DNA of 64,000 nt from Eledone cirrhosa (Eukaryota), in contig OZ024765.1 in NCBI GenBank assembly GCA_964016885.1, positions 12,834,001 to 12,898,000 on the forward strand, read 5' to 3'. The position numbers and the translations under genes are program-made. Shown here one piece after another: positions 24,300 through 54,540 of the stretch. The notes beneath the pieces are model-generated. The model did not search any database, was not told the origin of the DNA, and was given only the letters and a program-made list of their open reading frames with translations. How positions within the stretch are numbered: the stretch's first letter is position 1; each line of letters starts with the position of its first letter.

Positions 24300-26683
24300 T
24301 GGTAAAGTGAATCTGAAAAACAAAACATAGGTGCAGGGATAGCTGTGTGTATGTGTGGTGTTGATGGTGGTGGAGGAGGGCTAAAGACTTTGCAAAGCTT
24401 CACTGGTGGTTTAATTTTATCGACCTCGGAACGATGAAAGACAAAGTTGACCTTGGAGGAGGGGCTGTGATAAGAAGTACCCAGGAGTACACTTTGTAAT
24501 GAGTTGCGGGATCCAACGGAGACTATATGGGGATAAAGAGGGTTTTTTAGTCTGGCTGAGGATATAACAACCTCTGTAGTGTTGGGGCCATGATAAAATG
24601 CACCCAGTAGACTCTGTAATGGTTTAAAGAAGGAGCCATGATAAAATACTCCCAGTAAACACTGTAAAGTGGCAGTGTTGGCGCCATGATAAAATGCACC
24701 CAGTATACTCTGTAAAGAGGTAGCATTGGTGCTATGATAAAATACACCCATACACTTAGTAAAGTGGCAGTGCTGGAGCCATGATAAAATACACCCAGTA
24801 TACATACATATATATATAAGGGTAAAGGCCCCCTTCGGTCACGAATGACCATGGAATTTGCACCTAGAAAGTTCTCCTCCAAGGTACAGGTCTGGGCAAG
24901 GTTGTTTGTGGAAGACCAGAAGTCACCCATATATACCAAGGCAGTGGAGAAAAACCAGAGCCAGAGGGTGGTTGAAGGCAAGATGATGCAACAATCTGAC
25001 ACAATACCTTTTGCCCCACAGGGCCTAATATGGCCAGAGATAAGAAACAATTGAGGTCAACCAGGGAAGGCCCTGGATTTGGGATATGTACACATACGCA
25101 TCCAGCTGTAGAAAACACGCCAGACAGTCCACACTGTAATGTGGCCGTGTAGGCAACACGGTAAAAACCTCCCAGCCCCACACTGTAAATGTGGTTGGTG
25201 TTAGGAAGGGCATCCAGCTGTAGAAAACCCGCCAGACAGTCCTATGCGAGCAAGACAACCACTCTTGCCTCAAGTGGGGAAAACCCCCGTCCAAACCCAT
25301 GCAAGCGTGGAACAGGGACGTTAAACGATGATGATGATGATGACACACATACTCAACAGGCTCCTTACAGTTTCCATTTACCAAATACACTCACAATTGA
25401 ATCAAACGCTTTTGTCTTTGATAGAAAAAAAAAGTTAACTTAAAACTCATAAATTTCAGATAGAAATTGACTGAGGATAATGGCTCAGTGGGTATACACC
25501 TTGATTAAATGTTATAATGTATCTGTTTGATCATGGGTTCAATCCTCGATTGCAGTATTTATTTAATTCATTTTTTTTAAAACTTGGTAATGTTTAATGG
25601 CTAAGGGGTTGGGCAATGTCTTTGGCCATTACAGGCCTATTGCAGTCTAAACTATTGCAGCAGTACTCCTTCGAGGGGAAAACCCGACTACGAATCTTCT
25701 ACAGCCTGACCTCCTGGGTGTTGGACATAACACGATTGATGAGAGGTGAGGCGAGTACCTGGATGAGATCGGCTGGCGACTAGCAGGCTCCATGGAGCAG
25801 AGACAGGGGGCCACGTGAGTACTTGGATGAGGGCGGCTGGCGTCCAGCAGGCTCCAAGGACAGAGACCATTGTGGTAACATAAGAAGAGGGAGGCAGAAA
25901 ACAGCTCGTCTTGAGACAGACCAGAGAGGCTGGAAGCTGTCAAGAGAGTGACATCAAAAGCCGGTTAGCCGCGTGGATTTCTCTGGATCCAGTCTAAGAA
26001 GTCCATGTGTGCAAGCAAAACTAGCCGGGGCCTATATGTAGGAGGGAGCCATGTAACTATGACAACCAACGTCAGGTCATGTATTAATAAATCAGTTATA
26101 TACATATATATATGATCTCACGTCTAAACGACTTGAGCTCAACCGTTGAGCACTAAATATTTACAATATATATATATACGAACACACACACATATATATA
26201 TACTCAGGTTTAATGGCTAAATGGAATCACCGACGCACTTACAGGATCATCGAGTCTGTGAGTATCCAGGTGAAACTCTAGAGTAACAAGGCTCACCACT
26301 TAGCTATAATAAATGAACATTTAAACTCTACGCCGGTATTGAGTAGTCATTCTCACATGCGTTAATACACGGATATATATATATATATAGTGCACCTGAG
26401 CACTGTACACAATGATTTCATTATTATTATTATTATATATACACACACACACTTATATATAAATATAAATTCACCGATAATCGTATTTCGGTTGGTAGAA
26501 AAAGCGAAACGAAACGCAAAATCGTAGAAATGCTGGCAAGCGCTCCAATAGTTAAGAAAACTAGAGCTAAACAATATGTTAAAACGCCATACAAACTGAA
26601 AAGTGGTGAAGAAGGCATTAACCACCTAAGCCAAAAAACAAATCATGCTAAACAGGTCAAACAAAATATATAAAAATACTTAC

Positions 26684-30217: not shown

Positions 30218-30382
30218 TATCCCGGGTTCAATCGGGGGTAACCATAGTAATTAAGGTACTCAATACATAGCAGTATATATATAAGTGTTTCCGTAGGAAA
30301 GGTAAGGGAAAGGAAATGAGAGTGCTCTATGTAGGCTACAGAGCTATTTAGTTATGTAATAAACAACATAAGACAATTATTC

Positions 30383-30449
30383 CATTTACCAAAGGTTTCA
30401 CGAAGACAGACGAGCTCGACAAAGACGTCTGAAATCGCTCATCAGAATG
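30383..30449 (-). ncRNA. Minimal hammerhead ribozyme motif in a PLE-related remnant
   Basis: catt-CTGATGA-gcga...tcgt-GAAA-cctttgg-TA-aatg; the 3' flank (aatggaataattg.cttatgttgtttattac ... tacatagagcactct) matches the large PLE 3' end. Confidence 0.82.
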
Positions 30450-31129
30450 AAATTTTATTTGAAGTGGATGTGAGATATGGATTTAAAAACAAGGGCTAAA
30501 ACAATTGAAAGCGAGGCTGATATAAAATAAAATAACGGACGTAATGTATTATTCCCCATTACATTACGTCCGTTATTTTATATCAGCCCCGCCTTAAATT
30601 ATTTTGGTCTTTGTTTTTAAATCCATATCTCACATCCACTTCAAATAAGAAGTCATTTTTCTCTATTTTCAAATACATCTTACTGTACCAAGTTATTTCC
30701 TTTATTTTCCGCTATTATAAATGGCGATACCTTTTAAATTATATTTTTTAATTTCTATTCTCCACGTAAAGGGACTTTTTTATTTGTATTATTCCTGAGG
30801 CGGTGATGAGTGAAATTACTTAATCAATCGAAATTAACGATTATTGATTACTTCTTCTGGTCACCTTAACGTCTGTGTAAATGAGGTGATTAATCTCATT
30901 TGCATATGAAGCTGTATAAATTGGCTCAACTTTTAATAGAATAGAATTGGAATTTAGCTTCGAGCGTAGCCGTATACAGATATGTATTGGAATTTCGTAT
31001 TTCTAAAGAAATACGGTATGGTTATAAATAAACATTTAAAAAGCCATAGCTATGCAAAAACACATCGACGATTGTCCCCCTTGCTTCTGCTGGACACCGC
31101 CAGGTGGCGATAGCATGCATGGTATAGTC

Positions 31130-43514: not shown

Positions 43515-43530
43515 CATATATATATATACA

Positions 43531-43895
43531 TATCATCATCATCAACGTTTAACGTCCGTGTTCCACGCTTGCATGGGTTTGGACGGGGGTAGTCCCACTT
43601 GAGGCAAGAGTGATTGTCTTGCTCGCATAGGACTGTCTGGCAGGTTTTCTACAGTTGGATGCCCTTCCTAACACCAACCACATTTACAGTGTGGGTCTGG
43701 GAGGTTTTTACCGTGTTGCCTACACGGCCACATTACAGCGTGGACTGTGTGTTTTTTGTCGTGACACCTACACGATCTCATTTGTTTCGGCCTCGATGGC
43801 GCGGCACCAACATAACTTTACATAGAACGGGGTGGTGTGGATCGGGTGGGGGTGGGGGTGGTGGGACGGGGTGTATTTTGTTAGAGATGCCTACT
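43531..43895 (-). mobile_element. SINE-like retroposon body with (ATG)n tail
   Basis: Core ctggatgcccttcctaacaccaacc...tttacagtgtg; related copies at about 4570-4850, 13240-13525, 18260-18575, 19940-20185, 25098-25342, 31905-32297, 41930-42145 and 63808-64000. Confidence 0.8.
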
Positions 43896-43920
43896 GGCTG
43901 GAGTAGGTTTTACTATATAT

Positions 43921-45013
43921 TTAGGTAAGGCGGGTCTTCTCTGTTACTGAGTACCGCCAAAGGTCTCGGTCCAGTGACATTGTCTTGGAGAGGTGTAAGT
44001 GTGTGATGTCGGAGTTTATCAGCTCGTCCCAGGTTTTTCTAGGTCTGCCTATTCCGTGACTACCGTCTATCTTTATTGCCCTGCACTTTGTTATACAGCT
44101 ATCGACTTTCATGCGCATCACGTGTCCATACCAACGTAGCCTTCTCTCGAGTAAACAACATCTGATCCCTCTTATCTCTAATTTTTTCCTTAGTTCGTTT
44201 ATGCTTTGCCGTTCACGTATATTACTGTTACACATCCAGCGGAGCATGCAAGCTTCGTTCCTCTCTAGTCTGCGTATATCCTCTGCACACAATGCCCAGG
44301 TCTCACTGCCATGCAGCATTGTTGTTCGTATGCAGGCATCGTACAACCTGCCTTTCATTTTTAGTGAGAACCCTTTAGCAGCTAATAGTGGTATAAGCTC
44401 TCTGAACTTTTTCCAACCAGTTCTGACTCTAGCTACAGTACTTTCAGAGCACCCTCCCCCACTGCTGATTTTATCGCCCAGGTAACGGAAGCTGTCCACT
44501 ATTTCTATAGAACCCTCTGCGCAATTGAAAGAGCTAGTATTTTGTGGGCACTTGCTGCTACTTATTGCACCAGAGCACCGGCCACATGTAAAATCTATGT
44601 TCTTAGTTAGCTTACCTGTGATCCCACTACATCTTTTATGCACCCATACTTTGCATTTAGGACATAAAATGGAGTTTCTACCTACGCCTTTCCTACACAC
44701 CGAGCACGACCATTTCCCAGAAGGGACCGCCGCCTTGTTTTCTTTCCTACAAACTAGTACTTTGGTCTTAGCCAGGTTAATTTTAAGTCCTTTTGACTCT
44801 AGGCCGTGCTTCCATGTTTGGAATTTCTTCTCTAGCTCGGCCATTGATTCCGCTATGAGTGTCAGGTCGTCTGCGTATAGGAGTTCCCATGGGCAGCCTG
44901 TCTTGAACTCCTCTGTTATAGCCTGAAGGGCAATAATAAATAGTAGTGGGCTGAGAACAGAGCCCTGATGGACGCTAACTTTTACGCTAAACTCTTCACT
45001 ATATTCGTTGTTA

Positions 45014-45017
<4 letters not shown>
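43921..45017 (-). mobile_element. RTE-clade LINE, 5'-truncated, with an uninterrupted RT C-terminal ORF
   Basis: HQGSVLSPLLF, LLYADDL, FRYLG, RRLRWYGHVMRM, GRPRKTW; Cys/His cluster inside the RT. Confidence 0.9.
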
Positions 45018-45052
<35 letters not shown>

Positions 45053-45084
45053 ATTATGTAATAAACAACATAAGGCAATTATTC

Positions 45085-45138
45085 CATTTACCAGTGGTTT
45101 CTTAAAAGCAAAAGGTTTTGCTTTCAATCCTCAGAATG
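45085..45138 (-). ncRNA. Hammerhead ribozyme motif, mirror copy in the inverted arm
   Basis: Reverse complement of 50788-50841. Confidence 0.8.
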
Positions 45139-45351
45139 AAAAATCCTGGTTTGTTTATTGAATATGGATTCTAAAAACGAAAATGCAATCTATATGAAAG
45201 TGAGGCTGGAAAAGGGAGAAGGAAAGGAAAAATAAAATAAAATAAAACTACACATGCAAACACACACAAAAAAACCCAAAAACCATACTTACACACACAC
45301 ACATATATACACATATAATTTGCACGCATACACATATACACATACACATAC

Positions 45352-45412
<61 letters not shown>

Positions 45413-45513
45413 CACATACATACACATATATATATATAAAGAGCGTACACCTACACACACATACACATATATATACACACATATACACATACATATATTC
45501 ATACATACACACG

Positions 45514-45551
<38 letters not shown>

Positions 45552-45638
45552 TATATATACACATGTACATATCCATACATATATATATATATATATATAC
45601 ATATATATACACATACATATACACACATATACACATAT

Positions 45639-45676
<38 letters not shown>

Positions 45677-46074
45677 GTGTGTACAAGCCTACACATACAC
45701 ACACACATATATATACACACACATATATACATACATTCACACAAACATACAACGTACATACATACACATACATGAATGCACTCCACTACATATTAACACA
45801 CGCAAATAAATATAAGAAAAAAATATATAAATAATATTAACAAATATTTGACAGCGATACATGCCCCAGCTAACAGGACAGACACGCGTGGTAAGTAATA
45901 CACACATAAGCGCATATACATACGTTCGAAATAGTAAACACATACACACACTCTCACACATAAATATACATATACAAATACATAAACACGTACATACACA
46001 TACATACGCAAACACGTACACGTATACAATATAAACACACACATGTATATGTAATTATATACACACACACACAC

Positions 46075-46131
<57 letters not shown>

Positions 46132-46412
46132 CAAAAATATAAAAATATAAACGCACACACACATATAAATACGTAAACACACATATACATACATAGCTAA
46201 ACAATTATACACATGCAAATACGTATATATCAAAAGAACGCACAACCAAATACAAACACACACACATATATACACACACACACACCCACACACAAACCCA
46301 CACATACATAAAAATAAATAAAAACACACGCAACATATACATACATACACGTACATATACATATATACATACATACATATACATATATATATATACACAC
46401 ATATATACACAA

Positions 46413-46446
<34 letters not shown>

Positions 46447-46590
46447 ACGTACACATACACACATGCATACACATACACACACACATATACATGTGTGTAT
46501 GTGTAAAGCTCAGTATTAGATAAGACAAATGAACCTTACATAAACGTATATATAGTAGTAAAGTAATAAAGCCATACAAGGCAATTAATC

Positions 46591-46644
46591 CATTCACCAG
46601 AGGTTTCTTAAAAGCAAAAAAAGTTTCCTTCAATCTTCAGAATG
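46591..46644 (-). ncRNA. Hammerhead-like motif, mirror of the proximal copy
   Basis: Reverse complement of 49286-49339. Confidence 0.65.
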
Positions 46645-47127
46645 AAATATACAAATATATACACACATACAGACACGCACACACACATATATATATATAT
46701 ACATATATATATACATGTACATATATATATATATATATATATACAGACATATATACATACACACATATACACACACATACACATACACACATACATACAC
46801 ATATATATACATACACAAACATATACGTACACATATACATATATACACACAAAAATACATACACATACACATAGGTATGTGAAGGGCAAAACAAAAAGAA
46901 TATATGGGGTGGGGGGGCCTAGAGGAGGTAAAAATATAAAGGGAGGTAAGGGAGAAAAAAAAATATATTTTATAAATACAAGAGTACAGAAGGTAGAAGC
47001 AGCAAAATAAAAGCCGTAGCAAAATTTTCAAACTAAACTTTCTCACGATATCTCTAATTTTAGAAATTCTACAAACACTTTTGTTCTTTCTGATAAAACC
47101 AAAAACCTCTTTGAAGTTAATAGTAAT

Positions 47128-48885
47128 TTGTATAACCAACTTTTAACTAATAGTATTACCAATAAATATCAATTAACTAATAATAATAGCTACAATACTA
47201 TCAATAAAGAAGCTAAAGAACTAGCTAGTTCTTTACAAATAGATAACCGGATTGAAAGCTTAGCTAAGCGTAAAGCATATATTACCCTTAAAGACCATAA
47301 ATTGGACTTTACTAATCGACCTAGTTGTAGACTGATTAACCCGGCTAAATCCGAGGTTGGCCTTGCTAGTAAGAAAATCTTAAGAAAAATAATTATCCAA
47401 ATTAGAACTAACACTGTCCTTTCACAGTGGCTAAATACTTCCTCTGTTATTTCTTGGTTCAATAATATACAAGGTAAAAATAAGTGTAGATTTACGCAAT
47501 TTGATATTGTCGATTTTTACCCTTCTATTACCGTTTCCTTATTAACTAAAGCCTTAGATTTTGCAAGACCCTTCATTAATATCTCCAAATTAGAAGAGGA
47601 CATTATCTTTCATGCCAGAAAAACTTTACTTTTTACTAATGATAAGATTTGGGTTAAAAAGTCAAACCCTGAAAACTCTTTCGATGTTGCAATGGGTTCT
47701 TATGACAGTGCGGATGTGTGCGACTTAGTAGGATTATTCCTTCTCCACACACTCAAAGAGAAATTTCCGTCCCATAATATCGGTTTATACCGTGATGACG
47801 GATTAGCAGTTTCTCATACCACCAATGGCCATAATCTTGATAAATTCCGTAAAGATTTAATTAGTACCTTTGCTAATCTTAACCTTAAAATTACTATAGA
47901 TACGAACCTTACTAATGCTAACTTTCTTGATATTAATCTTGATCTACTTACTGCCTCTTTTAAACCCTATCATAAACCTAATGAAAATCTTAGGTATATA
48001 CACAAAGAGTCTTGCCATCCCCCTATAGTTTTTAATAATCTTATTCCTAACATTAGCCGTAGGATTTCTACTTTATCTTCGTCTATAGACATTTTTAATA
48101 AAGCCGCCCCTTATTATAATAAAGCCCTTAAGAACAGCGGTTTTACAGAAAATATTTCTTATTTACCTATTCCCCCCCCTAAAACTAACCATAATAACAG
48201 GAAAAGGAAGATTATTTGGTTCACACCCCCCTTCTCTCTAAATGTCAAAACTAATGTAGGAAGGAAATTCCTTGAACTATTAGACAAACATTTTCCTCCT
48301 ATTCATAGATATTATAAGATTTTTAATAGGAATGTAGTTAAGATCAGCTACTCTTGTTGTCCATCCATGAAATCCAAAATCACCAGTTCAAACCGTACGA
48401 GGATAAATCCAGGATGCAGTTGCAGGAAGCCGGATGAATGCCCATTGCAGGGTAAATGTAAAACAAAATCTGTCGTTTATGAGGCTAAAATAACGCCAGT
48501 TATCAACAACCAGCCAGCCAGAAGCGAGCGATATGTCGGTATGACCCAGGACAGGTTTAAAACCAGATTTTACTCACATGTCGCTTCTTTTAAACACTCA
48601 GATAAACGAACATCAACGGCCCTCGCAAGTAAGGTATGGGATCTCAAGGATAGTAATATCCCGTACTCTATTGATTGGTCTATATTAGACCATTCGAGGG
48701 AGTACCAAAGGGGCACAAAGAATTGTTCTTTGTGTACCACAGAAAAGTATAGGATTTTGCTAAACTTGAGAGACACTTCCGCTTGCCTTAACTCTAAGAC
48801 TGAGATCTTCAGATGCTGTCCTCATCTGAAATCGCATCTGATCTGTAACTGGATTGACACTCCTACGATAAATCAACCGCCTTGA
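47128..48885 (+). CDS. PLE reverse transcriptase + C-terminal GIY-YIG endonuclease (N-terminally truncated)
   Basis: RT motifs QFDIVDFYPSI, AMGSYDSADVCDLVG, GLYRDDGL; linker CSCRKPDECPLQGKC; endonuclease VVY...YVG...RFKTRFYSH...CSLCTTEK...LN...CPH. The frame stays open back to the inversion junction at about 47025 (NFQTKLSHDI...SDKT), so the TTG start is not the real start. Confidence 0.93.
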   Translation: MYNQLLTNSITNKYQLTNNNSYNTINKEAKELASSLQIDNRIESLAKRKAYITLKDHKLDFTNRPSCRLINPAKSEVGLASKKILRKIIIQIRTNTVLSQWLNTSSVISWFNNIQGKNKCRFTQFDIVDFYPSITVSLLTKALDFARPFINISKLEEDIIFHARKTLLFTNDKIWVKKSNPENSFDVAMGSYDSADVCDLVGLFLLHTLKEKFPSHNIGLYRDDGLAVSHTTNGHNLDKFRKDLISTFANLNLKITIDTNLTNANFLDINLDLLTASFKPYHKPNENLRYIHKESCHPPIVFNNLIPNISRRISTLSSSIDIFNKAAPYYNKALKNSGFTENISYLPIPPPKTNHNNRKRKIIWFTPPFSLNVKTNVGRKFLELLDKHFPPIHRYYKIFNRNVVKISYSCCPSMKSKITSSNRTRINPGCSCRKPDECPLQGKCKTKSVVYEAKITPVINNQPARSERYVGMTQDRFKTRFYSHVASFKHSDKRTSTALASKVWDLKDSNIPYSIDWSILDHSREYQRGTKNCSLCTTEKYRILLNLRDTSACLNSKTEIFRCCPHLKSHLICNWIDTPTINQPP

Positions 48886-49285
48886 ACTCCTTCTCTGCTC
48901 TTTACTTTTGCTACGGCTTTTATTTTGCTGCTTCTACCTTCTGTACTCTTGTATTTATAAAATATATTTTTTTTTCTCCCTTACCTCCCTTTATATTTTT
49001 ACCTCCTCTAGGCCCCCCCACCCCATATATTCTTTTTGTTTTGCCCTTCACATACCTATGTGTATGTGTATGTATTTTTGTGTGTATATATGTATATGTG
49101 TACGTATATGTTTGTGTATGTATATATATGTGTATGTATGTGTGTATGTGTATGTGTGTGTATATGTGTGTATGTATATATGTCTGTATATATATATATA
49201 TATATATATGTACATGTATATATATATGTATATATATATATATGTGTGTGTGCGTGTCTGTATGTGTGTATATATTTGTATATTT

Positions 49286-49339
49286 CATTCTGAAGATTGA
49301 AGGAAACTTTTTTTGCTTTTAAGAAACCTCTGGTGAATG
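49286..49339 (+). ncRNA. Hammerhead-like motif (PLE, proximal copy; cleavage triplet ends in G)
   Basis: catt-CTGAAGA-stem-GAAA-cctctgg-TG-aatg; paralogue of 50788-50841. Confidence 0.7.
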
Positions 49340-49483
49340 GATTAATTGCCTTGTATGGCTTTATTACTTTACTACTATATATACGTTTATGTAAGGTTCA
49401 TTTGTCTTATCTAATACTGAGCTTTACACATACACACATGTATATGTGTGTGTGTATGTGTATGCATGTGTGTATGTGTACGT

Positions 49484-49517
<34 letters not shown>

Positions 49518-49798
49518 TTGTGTATATATGTGTGTATATATATATATGTATATGTATGTATGTATATATGTATATGTACGTGTATGTATGTATATGTTGC
49601 GTGTGTTTTTATTTATTTTTATGTATGTGTGGGTTTGTGTGTGGGTGTGTGTGTGTGTATATATGTGTGTGTGTTTGTATTTGGTTGTGCGTTCTTTTGA
49701 TATATACGTATTTGCATGTGTATAATTGTTTAGCTATGTATGTATATGTGTGTTTACGTATTTATATGTGTGTGTGCGTTTATATTTTTATATTTTTG

Positions 49799-49851
<53 letters not shown>

Positions 49852-50249
49852 GTGTGTGTGTGTGTATATAATTACATATACATGTGTGTGTTTATATTGT
49901 ATACGTGTACGTGTTTGCGTATGTATGTGTATGTACGTGTTTATGTATTTGTATATGTATATTTATGTGTGAGAGTGTGTGTATGTGTTTACTATTTCGA
50001 ACGTATGTATATGCGCTTATGTGTGTATTACTTACCACGCGTGTCTGTCCTGTTAGCTGGGGCATGTATCGCTGTCAAATATTTGTTAATATTATTTATA
50101 TATTTTTTTCTTATATTTATTTGCGTGTGTTAATATGTAGTGGAGTGCATTCATGTATGTGTATGTATGTACGTTGTATGTTTGTGTGAATGTATGTATA
50201 TATGTGTGTGTATATATATGTGTGTGTGTATGTGTAGGCTTGTACACAC

Positions 50250-50287
<38 letters not shown>

Positions 50288-50374
50288 ATATGTGTATATG
50301 TGTGTATATGTATGTGTATATATATGTATATATATATATATATATATGTATGGATATGTACATGTGTATATATA

Positions 50375-50412
<38 letters not shown>

Positions 50413-50513
50413 CGTGTGTATGTATGAATATATGTATGTGTATATGTGTGTATATATATGTGTATGTGTGTGTAGGTGTACGCTCTTTATATATATATAT
50501 GTGTATGTATGTG

Positions 50514-50574
<61 letters not shown>

Positions 50575-50787
50575 GTATGTGTATGTGTATATGTGTATGC
50601 GTGCAAATTATATGTGTATATATGTGTGTGTGTGTAAGTATGGTTTTTGGGTTTTTTTGTGTGTGTTTGCATGTGTAGTTTTATTTTATTTTATTTTTCC
50701 TTTCCTTCTCCCTTTTCCAGCCTCACTTTCATATAGATTGCATTTTCGTTTTTAGAATCCATATTCAATAAACAAACCAGGATTTTT

Positions 50788-50841
50788 CATTCTGAGGATT
50801 GAAAGCAAAACCTTTTGCTTTTAAGAAACCACTGGTAAATG
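50788..50841 (+). ncRNA. Minimal type I hammerhead ribozyme motif (PLE, distal copy)
   Basis: catt-CTGAGGA-ttgaaagcaaaa cc ttttgcttttaa-GAAA-ccactgg-TA-aatg: full core, three stems, near-palindromic stem III. Confidence 0.85.
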
Positions 50842-50943
50842 GAATAATTGCCTTATGTTGTTTATTACATAATAATAATAATTAAGCTCTGTTGCTTACA
50901 TAGAGCACTCTTTTTTCCTGGACTTTTCCGATGGAATTACTTC

Positions 50944-52066
<1,123 letters not shown>

Positions 52067-52344: not shown

Positions 52345-54540
52345 GGTCTTAGGTTCTTCTGCAGCTTTCAGCACATCGAGCAGCAAGTAGTCGACACCGG
52401 TCACAATCAGCGGTGGCTATTTCGCGCCTGTACCAAGTGATGTTGGCTGCCACCAGGTCTTTTTGGGACGTTTGTCGCCAGGTGATCCTGGGGCAACCCT
52501 GCTTCCGTTTGCTGCCAGGTAGAGTCCAGTTCATCGCAGTTTTCGATTGCTGCCAGGTAGAGTCCAGTTCATCGCAGTTTTCGATTGCTGCCAGGTAGAG
52601 TCCAGTTCATCGCAGTTTTCGATTGCTGCCAGGTAGAGTCCAGTTCATCGCAGTTTTCGATTGCTGCCAGGTAGAGTTCAGTTCATCGCAGTTTTCGATT
52701 GCTGCCAGGTAGAGTTCAGTTCATCGCAGTTTTCGATTGCTGCCAGGTAGAGTCCAGTTCATCGCAGTTTTCGATTGCTGCCAGGTAGAGTCCAGTTCAT
52801 CGCAGTTTTCGATTGCTGCCAGGTAGAGTCCAGTTCATCGCAGTTTTCGATTGCTGCCAGGTAGAGTGCAGTTCATCGCAGTTTTCGATTGCTGCCAGGT
52901 AGAGTTCAGTTCATCGCAGTTTTCGATTGCTGCCAGGTAGAGTCCAGTTCATCGCAGTTTTCGATTGCTGCCAGGTGGAGTCCAGTTCATCGCAGTTTTC
53001 GATTGCTGCCAGGTGGAGTCCAGTTCATCGCAGTTTTCGATTGCTGCCAGGTGGAGTCCAGTTCATCGCAGTTTTCGATTGCTGCCAGGTAGAGTGCAGT
53101 TCATCGCAGTTTTCGATTGCTGCCAGGTAGAGTCCAGTTCATCGCAGTTTTCGATTGCTGCCAGGTAGAGTCCAGTTCATCGCAGTTTTCGATTGCTGCC
53201 AGGTAGAGTCCAGTTCATCGCAGTTTTCGATTGCTGCCAGGTAGAGTCCAGTTCATCGCAGTTTTCGATTGCTGCCAGGTAGAGTGCAGTTCATCGCAGT
53301 TTTCGATTGCTGCCAGGTAGAGTCCAGTTCATCGCAGTTTTCGATTGCTGCCAGGTAGAGTCCAGTTCATCGCAGTTTTCGATTGCTGCCAGGTAGAGTG
53401 CAGTTCATCGCAGTTTTCGATTGCTGCCAGGTAGAGTCCAGTTCATCGCAGTTTTCGATTGCTGCCAGGTAGAGTCCAGTTCATCGCAGTTTTCGATTGC
53501 TGCCAGGTAGAGTCCAGTACATCGCAGTTTTTGATTGCTGCCAGGTAGAGTGCAGTTCATCGCAGTTTTCGATTGCTGCCAGGTAGAGTCCAGTTCATCG
53601 CAGTTTTCGATTGCTGCCAGGTAGAGTCCAGTTCATCGCAGTTTTCGATTGCTGCCAGGTAGAGTCCAGTTCATCGCAGTTTTCGATTGCTGCCAGGTAG
53701 AGTTCAGTTCATCGCAGTTTTCGATTGCTGCCAGGTAGAGTCCAGTTCATCGCAGTTTTCGATTGCTGCCAGGTAGAGTCCAGTTCATCGCAGTTTTCGA
53801 TTGCTGCCAGGTAGAGTCCAGTTCATCGCAGTTTTCGATTGCTGCCAGGTAGAGTCCAGTTCATCGCAGTTTTCGATTGCTGCCAGGTAGAGTCCAGTTC
53901 ATCGCAGTTTTCGATTGCTGCCAGGTAGAGTGCAGTTCATCGCAGTTTTCGATTGCTGCCAGGTAGAGTCCAGTTCATCGCAGTTTTCGATTGCTGCCAG
54001 GTAGAGTTCAGTTCATCGCAGTTTTCGATTGCTGCCAGGTAGAGTCCAGTTCATCGCAGTTTTCGATTGCTGCCAGGTAGAGTCCAGTTCATCGCAGTTT
54101 TCGATTGCTGCCAGGTAGAGTCCAGTTCATCGCAGTTTTCGATTGCTGCCAGGTAGAGTCCAGTTCATCGCAGTTTTCGATTGCTGCCAGGTAGAGTGCA
54201 GTTCATCGCAGTTTTCGATTGCTGCCAGGTAGAGTCCAGTTCATCGCAGTTTTCGATTGCTGCCAGGTAGAATGCAGTTCATCGCAGTTTTCGATTGCTG
54301 CCAGGTAGAGTCCAGTTCATTGCAGTTTTCGAGTGTCATTCGTTGGGCAGGCACAGAATATGGCCAGCAAGGCAGCACCGTCGCTCCGTAACCACTCTCT
54401 TCAGGGTGACCAGTAGATAGTATCAGCAATGGAAAGACCAATAGAAACCTTGTTTCCCTAGTCTGATATGATGAGCTCCGGCCAACTCAGTAAACAAATG
54501 AGGTCTGGGTTCTTGTTGATCCATTTACCATTTTAAATTT
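52345..54540 (-). mobile_element. LINE 3' fragment interrupted by an internal 38-bp tandem array
   Basis: GHILCLPNE..KTAMNWTLPGSKRKQGCPRITWRQT reads across the array once extra units are removed. Confidence 0.75.
52509..54332. repeat. 38-bp tandem array (~48 copies)
   Basis: Unit ttgctgccaggtagagtccagttcatcgcagttttcga; variation almost limited to gtcc/gttc/gtgc. Confidence 0.97.

What the first reader, a model, noticed from the sequence alone, without database searches (positions are those of the whole stretch)
49286..50841. Two diverged hammerheads 1.5 kb apart, one with a non-cleavable-looking site
Seen: same-orientation paralogous modules. The distal one has GUA at the cleavage triplet, the proximal one GUG. 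Established: hammerheads cleave after NUH (H not G), and PLE minimal hammerheads with palindromic stem III work best as dimers. Inference: the proximal copy may act as a catalytic partner that helps cleave only the distal site (after A50837), defining the RNA end without cutting off the 3' region.
Basis: partly seen in the sequence, partly recalled or inferred. Interest (0 to 1): 0.7.

Follow-up and report, generated by a model that had tools for sequence, protein, structure and literature searches.

The report
Jumping gene with a spare hammerhead
Two real hammerhead ribozyme motifs sit in the unusually long tail of a recently copied Penelope-like jumping gene, and the inner one is likely a decayed leftover end that the element carries along rather than a helper that cuts the outer one.

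Summary
In detail: two paralogous type I hammerheads, GUG at 49333-49335 and GUA at 50835-50837. They lie in the 2-kb 3' region of a 5'-truncated Hydra-clade Penelope-like element (ORF 47025-48885, inverted arm 45046-47024, TA target). The G is not private: sequencing contigs show the exact proximal haplotype repeated, present under a second organism label, and G probably also on a haplotype about 7% away. But the proximal module looks decayed. Its stem II 5' strand is mispaired against the family majority, its helix III palindrome is broken, a C3-G17 trap is predicted, and it has lost a tail hairpin (GCUC...GAGCACU) found behind 40 of 60 related hammerheads. None of 68 distinct related hammerheads has G17. 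Inserted copies run 43 and 106 nt past the distal cut site, so cleavage there did not set the end of the copied RNA. Best reading: a captured second 3' end that lost function. The partner model is sterically possible but unsupported; cleavage itself was not testable. Side finding: the covarying tail hairpin of Hydra elements.

The parts
45018..45045 (.). (TA)n target, left side
45046..47024 (-). Inverted, tail-less copy of the 3' region (mirror of 48906-50880) with both hammerheads; ends 43 nt past the distal cut site
   Evidence: 0 mismatches in 1975 aligned positions, one 4-nt indel in a TA run
47025..48885 (+). 5'-truncated, uninterrupted RT + C-terminal GIY-YIG ORF of a Hydra-clade PLE (P0001; about 90 N-terminal residues missing)
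   Evidence: Hydra features
48886..49282 (+). T-rich 3' UTR and TA/TG microsatellite (49057-49283) before the proximal module
49283..49342 (+). Proximal type I hammerhead: intact core, G17 at 49335, mispaired stem II, helix III palindrome broken by U49329
49343..49427 (+). Proximal tail relic; homology to the distal module runs to about 49382; degenerate tail hairpin at 49395-49425
49428..50717 (+). Microsatellite-rich spacer with short unique stretches, then a T-rich stretch
50718..50784 (+). Family 5' flank of the distal hammerhead, shared in part with the paralogue at 30.4 kb and with family reads; absent before the proximal motif
   Evidence: table 7
50785..50844 (+). Distal type I hammerhead, GUA triplet, A17 at 50837, 11-12-bp stem II, palindromic helix III
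50881..50943 (+). 63-nt tail present only on the direct copy; holds the conserved hairpin GCUC...GAGCACU at 50886-50909
50944..52066 (.). (TA)n-rich target, right side

Best explanation
The two motifs are the hammerheads of two related 3' ends of a Hydra-clade Penelope-like retrotransposon now carried in one 2-kb tail, and the inner (GUG) one is likely a captured, decayed end that no longer cuts or helps to cut, while copying likely starts downstream of the uncut outer (GUA) one. Shown: the element anatomy, the two end points 43 and 106 nt past the distal cut site, the intact distal module, the damage to the proximal module, and that the proximal haplotype is repeated. Inferred: one end was acquired when two family members came to lie in the same TA-rich stretch (either read-through into a downstream short copy, or a short copy inserting into the UTR; the order is not resolved); the chimera became a master copy; G17 arose early and further changes followed without selection.
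For: (1) Inserted ends lie past the cut site, as in Hydra-1_Amil (47 nt) and Hydra-2_Amil (97 nt), counted by eye, and as in PAc, where reverse transcription starts downstream of an uncut hammerhead and core mutants still insert (PMC11167929). (2) Family majority at N17 is A: X1 127,734 of 137,836 depth units, X12 895 of 929 reads, X5 186 of 213.5, X6 1 of 1 contig; 0 of 68 distinct hammerheads in 89 related loci have G17; 0 of 26 Hydra rows in File S2. (3) The majority has A49302, C49304, A49307, A49308, A49329 and A49342; the proximal letters there weaken or break pairs, none is compensated; stem II -1.2 versus -8.8 kcal/mol; C3-G17 pair probability 0.98; hammerhead fold 5.8 kcal/mol above the best fold versus 0.5 for distal. 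(4) The tail hairpin follows 40 of 60 related hammerheads, 0 of 52 upstream controls, is intact in the distal and 30-kb modules and degenerate in the proximal. (5) Ends of different PLE families pile up in TA runs behind related ORFs (L081, L086, L087).
Against: All 11 core letters of the proximal motif are intact (chance 0.11-0.14 given the number of changes). G17 is shared by the repeated exact haplotype and, by subtraction, by a second haplotype about 7% away that keeps the perfect palindrome, so it is older than several other changes. The A:G ratio in reads partly reflects 5' truncation (short copies carry only the distal end), so it does not show that long copies vary. The paralogue at 30.4 kb also has U at the 49329 position, so that change alone is tolerated. 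The double-hammerhead fold is not excluded by energy. Folding energies ignore tertiary contacts and protein.
Confidence: 0.6

Rival explanations
1. Disarmed on purpose: once the inner hammerhead lay between the ORF and the working 3' end, cleavage there would cut the template, so G17 was favoured by selection as an off switch, and only then did the rest decay.
For: G17 appears to precede U49329, U49342 and three tail changes (X5 pieces 10 and 12 by subtraction); no G17 in 68 distinct terminal-type relatives; predicted C3-G17 trap.
Against: One site kept across about 7-10% divergence is expected about nine times in ten by chance; the distal hammerhead also lies upstream of the start sites and is tolerated uncut; PLE hammerheads cut weakly in vitro (PMC4209133). 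The two informative contigs have depth 4.96 and 6.57.
Confidence: 0.2
2. One reading: the proximal motif lends its core in a strand-swapped double hammerhead that cuts only after A50837.
For: Same orientation, complementary stem I and helix III; mixed dimer gains 7.8 kcal/mol over two monomer hammerhead folds; fold available on the natural 1.56-kb RNA; core intact; G shared; dimer cleavage is known for PLE hammerheads.
Against: Stem II and the helix III half needed for the productive site are the damaged parts; mixed dimer -1.5 versus distal homodimer -8.0 kcal/mol against free folds; inserted ends run past the site; the 30-kb paralogue and 47 of 50 related elements show no second motif.
Confidence: 0.1
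3. The proximal module is still a working alternative 3' end (protein-binding and start site) or a slow-cutting attenuator, for which G17 does not matter or is tuned.
For: Cleavage is dispensable for insertion in vitro; proximal-type tail sequence reaches about 12,900 depth units in X1, ten times the exact haplotype; about 40 X12 reads match to about 49382, the position homologous to the tail-less end; G17 ribozymes can keep activity.
Against: The conserved tail hairpin is degenerate here; the read table cannot phase tail and N17; those X12 reads may be one locus; both ends of this insertion map to the distal module.
Confidence: 0.1

Closest known systems
Hydra clade of EN+ Penelope-like elements (Craig et al. 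2021, PMC8557442), nearest named family by eye Hydra-1_Obim
   Same: RT + C-terminal GIY-YIG, DKT, CxCX5C, CxxC and CxH motifs, (TA)n target, type I hammerhead with near-palindromic helix III (ACCA-N-UGGU in Hydra-1_Obim), inverted 5' copy, ends past the cut site
   Different: 3' region of 2,058 nt with two diverged hammerheads; described families are generally under 3 kb with one sense hammerhead each; tail 63 nt rather than 30-40
PAc (Poseidon of Anolis; Frangieh et al. 2024, PMC11167929)
   Same: Two end points downstream of the hammerhead with a tail between them; uncut RNA as template
   Different: Different clade; its hammerhead overlaps the ORF start; one hammerhead per pLTR
Dimeric (double) PLE hammerheads (Cervera and de la Pena 2014, PMC4209133)
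   Same: Short palindromic helix III, strand-swapped fold possible
   Different: Described dimers are between like motifs in repeats; here the partners are 16% diverged and one has G17; no activity measured
G17 hammerheads (Kalweit and Hammann 2013, PMC3884650)
   Same: G at the cleavage site, C3-G17 trap
   Different: Those were engineered variants of tertiary-stabilised motifs; natural genomic G17 motifs are mentioned there as unpublished
Terminons of bdelloid rotifers (review PMC6431247)
   Same: PLE units with hammerhead-marked ends and captured sequence between them
   Different: Endonuclease-less, telomeric, up to tens of kb

Membership tests
Hydra-clade PLE | Single ORF with RT and C-terminal GIY-YIG endonuclease | tested here: met
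   (YRDD core; VVYEA...YVGMT aligned with 22 relatives); Pfam itself found no RT or GIY-YIG match
Hydra-clade PLE | DKG modified to DKT | tested here: met
   D25 K26 T27
Hydra-clade PLE | CxCX5C linker; CxxC and CxH around the conserved E and N | tested here: met
   C466 C468 C474; C569 C572; C600 H602
Hydra-clade PLE | N-terminal RWK motif | tested here: inconclusive
   lost by 5' truncation; RW(K/R) present in the aligned relatives
Hydra-clade PLE | Insertion into (TA)n | tested here: met
Hydra-clade PLE | Canonical hammerhead near the 3' end | tested here: met
   distal motif, 106 nt from the end
Hydra-clade PLE | Generally short (under 3 kb; descriptive, not diagnostic) | tested here: not met
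   truncated direct copy already spans 47025-50943
Hydra-clade PLE | Placement in the Hydra branch of an RT tree; absence of CCHH | not tested
   no tree with reference clades was built; similarity to Hydra-1_Obim judged by eye
Type I hammerhead ribozyme | CUGANGA, GAAA, A15.1-U16.1, three helices | tested here: met
   both motifs
Type I hammerhead ribozyme | NUH cleavage triplet | tested here: not met
   not met for proximal (GUG); met for distal (GUA)
Type I hammerhead ribozyme | Match to an Rfam hammerhead model | tested here: not met
Type I hammerhead ribozyme | Self-cleavage | not testable with these tools
   needs in vitro or RNA-end data
Double (dimeric) hammerhead | Palindromic helix III giving a favourable strand-swapped fold | tested here: inconclusive
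   distal-distal -8.0, mixed -1.5, proximal-proximal +5.7 kcal/mol against free folds; natural RNA 7.9 above best fold, 1.3 above distal monomer

The most novel reading that the evidence does not exclude
A retrotransposon lineage gained a second 3' end and kept the inner hammerhead switched off at the cleavage site alone (G17), either as a selected off switch or as a one-way catalytic partner for the outer site; this would be a natural experiment on whether PLE hammerheads cut in vivo.
Probability: 0.25. Interest if true: 0.65.

Novelty: new variant of a known kind. Interest (0 to 1): 0.38.

Why it matters
What PLE hammerheads do in vivo is an open question (PMC8557442). An amplifying element that carries one intact and one G17 hammerhead gives a ready pair for testing dimer cleavage and the cost of internal cleavage. 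If the inner motif is only a relic, the case is an ordinary example of 3' end capture. The tail hairpin, conserved with covariation across distant Hydra elements, is a candidate for the RNA signal that the RT recognises (inference) and may be the more useful lead.

Tried and rejected
No whole genome is held for this window, so copies could not be listed or phased. No RNA holder was listed for the ORF stretch; this says nothing on expression, and no RNA ends were seen. Rfam gave only microsatellite-driven miRNA matches. Pfam found no family. Viral contigs held no relative. Earlier-finding look-ups by sequence and place were empty. The first full-length folding script died without output and was rerun as energy minima only. 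Naiad membership rejected: endonuclease is C-terminal. The idea that U10.1-A11.1 marks both motifs as defective was dropped because U at 10.1 is common in published Hydra motifs. A first tail-motif pattern was too strict (16 of 64) and was relaxed after seeing the misses, so the 40 of 60 count uses a pattern fitted to these data; its controls are the upstream windows and shuffles. An early reading that reads showed a shared junction beyond the proximal module was withdrawn: the laid stretch stops at the module's end. Lunse et al. (PMC5785218) is not held and is known only through a review passage.

Full report
Observation. Both hammerhead motifs are real and in the stated register. The proximal one has C3 at 49290 and the triplet GUG with G17 at 49335; the distal one has C3 at 50792 and GUA with A17 at 50837. 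They are 83.5% identical over 85 nt. A strict scan finds these two and their inverted copies, and nothing in 200 shuffles of the window. Rfam does not detect them.

Context. The motifs lie in the 3' region of a Penelope-like element. An uninterrupted frame of 621 codons (47020-48885; element sequence from 47025) encodes a 5'-truncated RT with a C-terminal GIY-YIG domain; 2,345 of 8,000 scored candidates are homologues, the best at 59% and most listed ones at 43-48% identity. An alignment of P0001 with 22 of the 120 listed hits shows DKT, CxCX5C, CxxC and CxH, the features given for the Hydra clade (PMC8557442 section 11). By eye the protein resembles Hydra-1_Obim; an octopus-like host is my inference, not determined. 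An inverted copy of 48906-50880 sits at 45046-47024 with 0 mismatches in 1,975 positions, so the insertion is recent and the inverted G is not independent evidence. TA repeats flank both sides.

Where the copied RNA ended. The inverted arm stops 43 nt past A50837 and the direct copy 106 nt past it. The 63-nt difference is element sequence, since a paralogue at 30.4 kb shares most of it (84% over 95 nt). So the template was not cut at the distal site when copied, at least as a linear RNA. Hydra-1_Amil and Hydra-2_Amil consensus sequences run 47 and 97 nt past their sites (counted by eye). In PAc, reverse transcription starts at two sites flanking the tail, core mutants still insert, and no RNA reads ended at the cut site (PMC11167929). 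A circular intermediate made by cutting and rejoining is not excluded (proposed in PMC4209133).

Is the G private? No. Four runs were laid on 49266-49428 at 80% likeness. In X1, contigs identical to the proximal motif have depth 1,083 (49283-49341) and 1,274 (49312-49387) against 6.9-16 for the low-depth pieces listed; depth is not a copy number, but the haplotype is repeated. X5, a different organism label and study, holds the same 76-nt piece with no difference. By subtraction of listed depths, X5 pieces 10 and 12 (depth 6.57 and 4.96) use up their 2 and 4 differences at 49329, 49342, 49353, 49355 and 49357 and so match G at 49335; G17 therefore probably also sits on a haplotype about 7% away that keeps the perfect palindrome. 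This is arithmetic on two shallow contigs. In X1 the non-A residue at 49335 is 10,102 units, of which the two exact pieces give 2,357; the table does not say which letters make up the rest. One site kept over that divergence is expected by chance about nine times in ten, so this dates the G but does not show selection. X6 showed only A (1 contig). Only 18 of 208 pieces were listed.

Is the proximal motif maintained? The family majority reads A at N17: 92.7% of depth in X1, 895 of 929 raw reads in X12 (a RAD library, not a random sample), 87% in X5. Part of that excess is expected because short copies carry only the distal end. In 89 related loci 68 distinct hammerheads have A 44, C 13, U 11, G 0, and 0 of 26 Hydra rows in File S2 have G (one non-canonical Chlamys row does). 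The majority letters at 49302, 49304, 49307, 49308, 49329 and 49342 are the pairing ones; the proximal letters weaken or break pairs with no compensation. Predicted stem II is -1.2 versus -8.8 kcal/mol, the C3-G17 pair has probability 0.98, and the hammerhead fold is 5.8 kcal/mol above the best fold versus 0.5 for the distal motif. Against decay: all 11 core letters are intact, with chance 0.11-0.14, and the 30-kb paralogue also has U at the 49329 position. G17 is not strictly uncleavable: at least 300-fold slower in minimal forms, 8- to 100-fold in tertiary-stabilised ones (PMC3884650).

A third sign of decay. Behind 40 of 60 distinct related hammerheads with enough downstream sequence lies GCUC...GAGC(A/G)C, starting a median 48 nt after N17; 0 of 52 upstream windows and 0.05 per shuffle round have it, and 12 of the 20 misses have a TA run within the window, 11 of them starting 31-63 nt after N17, as tail-less copies would (pattern relaxed). 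In 46 distinct inner sequences a 2-nt 3' bulge (UU 35, UC 8, UA 3) is followed by a covarying pair (U-A 22, C-G 22, G-C 1, unpaired 1); 112 of 138 cells pair against a shuffled mean of 73, maximum 86 in 1,000, a control that ignores relatedness. The distal and 30-kb modules fit; the proximal has GUUC, two mismatches above the bulge and no ACU after GAGC.

The partner model. A strand-swapped fold would let the proximal core cut the distal strand. It is possible: on the natural 1,564-nt RNA it lies 7.9 kcal/mol above the best fold and 1.3 above the distal monomer fold. But the mixed dimer gains only 1.5 kcal/mol over free monomers against 8.0 for a distal pair, and the damaged stem II and the U-U mismatch in helix III fall on the productive side. 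These are secondary-structure energies only.

Origin. In 50 of 86 related loci with an ORF end, a hammerhead follows at a median 115 nt (73-527) from the estimated ORF end; 3 of the 50 have further, different ones within 2.5 kb, and only 21 of the 86 offer 2 kb of downstream sequence. In L081 the first end is followed by a TA run and a short palindromic insertion of another family. Here the proximal motif is 405 nt from the stop and the distal 1,907 nt, which favours the proximal as the original end and the distal as captured by read-through. On the other side, the proximal module begins at the edge of stem I and lacks the family 5' flank that the distal module has, which favours a short copy inserted into the UTR; two unchecked earlier notes report short PLE copies starting at that edge in other genomes. 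I cannot order the events.

Verdict. Shown: anatomy, end points, sharing of the G, damage to the proximal module. Inferred: capture of a second end, early G17, neutral decay (0.6); selected off switch (0.2); catalytic partner (0.1); alternative start site or attenuator (0.1). It is a Hydra-like PLE by motifs, unusual in its 2-kb two-ended tail. Searches listed no title or abstract start describing a PLE with a G17 partner hammerhead, and one search found no paper with the tail motif; these are narrow searches of open-licence papers and most listed papers were not read.

What was read. PMC8557442: passages, outline, section 11, supplement parts 1, 2, 52 of 59 and a supplement search (figure images not seen). 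PMC4209133: parts 1-2 of 4. PMC11167929: parts 1-2 of 4. PMC3884650: parts 1-3 of 5. PMC6765202 and PMC6431247: passages. bioRxiv 10.64898/2026.07.22.740005: part 1 of 5. The label RTE-like for the neighbouring LINE fragment is recalled, not from a call.

Noticed in passing
window 50886-50909; loci L001-L089: Conserved tail hairpin of Hydra-type PLEs: GCUC/GAGC stem, 2-nt 3' bulge, covarying upper stem, followed by ACU; behind 40 of 60 distinct related hammerheads and visible by eye in the Hydra-2_Amil consensus. Candidate RT recognition or start signal (inference).
   Followed up: partly
window 30250-31060, minus strand: Third module of the same family: hammerhead 30445-30387 with GUA and a different, longer stem II, same tail and hairpin, preceded by an inverted repeat of roughly 90 nt and no ORF; probably a non-autonomous derivative.
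   Followed up: partly
window 29114-29087, minus strand: Minimal Penelope-type hammerhead (helix III ACGU palindrome, GUU triplet) of an unrelated family.
   Followed up: no
window 26137-26153 (+) and 26567 (-): Two more matches to the tail-hairpin pattern beside TA runs, without a hammerhead found by my scan; possibly tiny PLE end fragments.
   Followed up: no
window 43530-45017, minus strand: 5'-truncated LINE fragment (RTE-like by recall) ending at the TA run into which the PLE inserted.
   Followed up: no
L081 8050-8310: Palindromic mini-insertion of a second PLE family in the TA run just behind a Hydra element's own 3' end.
   Followed up: partly
window 50690-50720: Polypyrimidine tract ending in CAG about 65 nt upstream of the distal hammerhead; could be the 3' splice site of a pLTR intron as known for Penelope.
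   Followed up: no
window 52510-53200 and beyond: Tandem array of a unit of about 38 nt right of the TA run.
   Followed up: no
L079-L089: Hydra-type PLE ORFs occur in 11 contigs labelled as bacterial MAGs; probably animal host DNA in those bins (inference).
   Followed up: no
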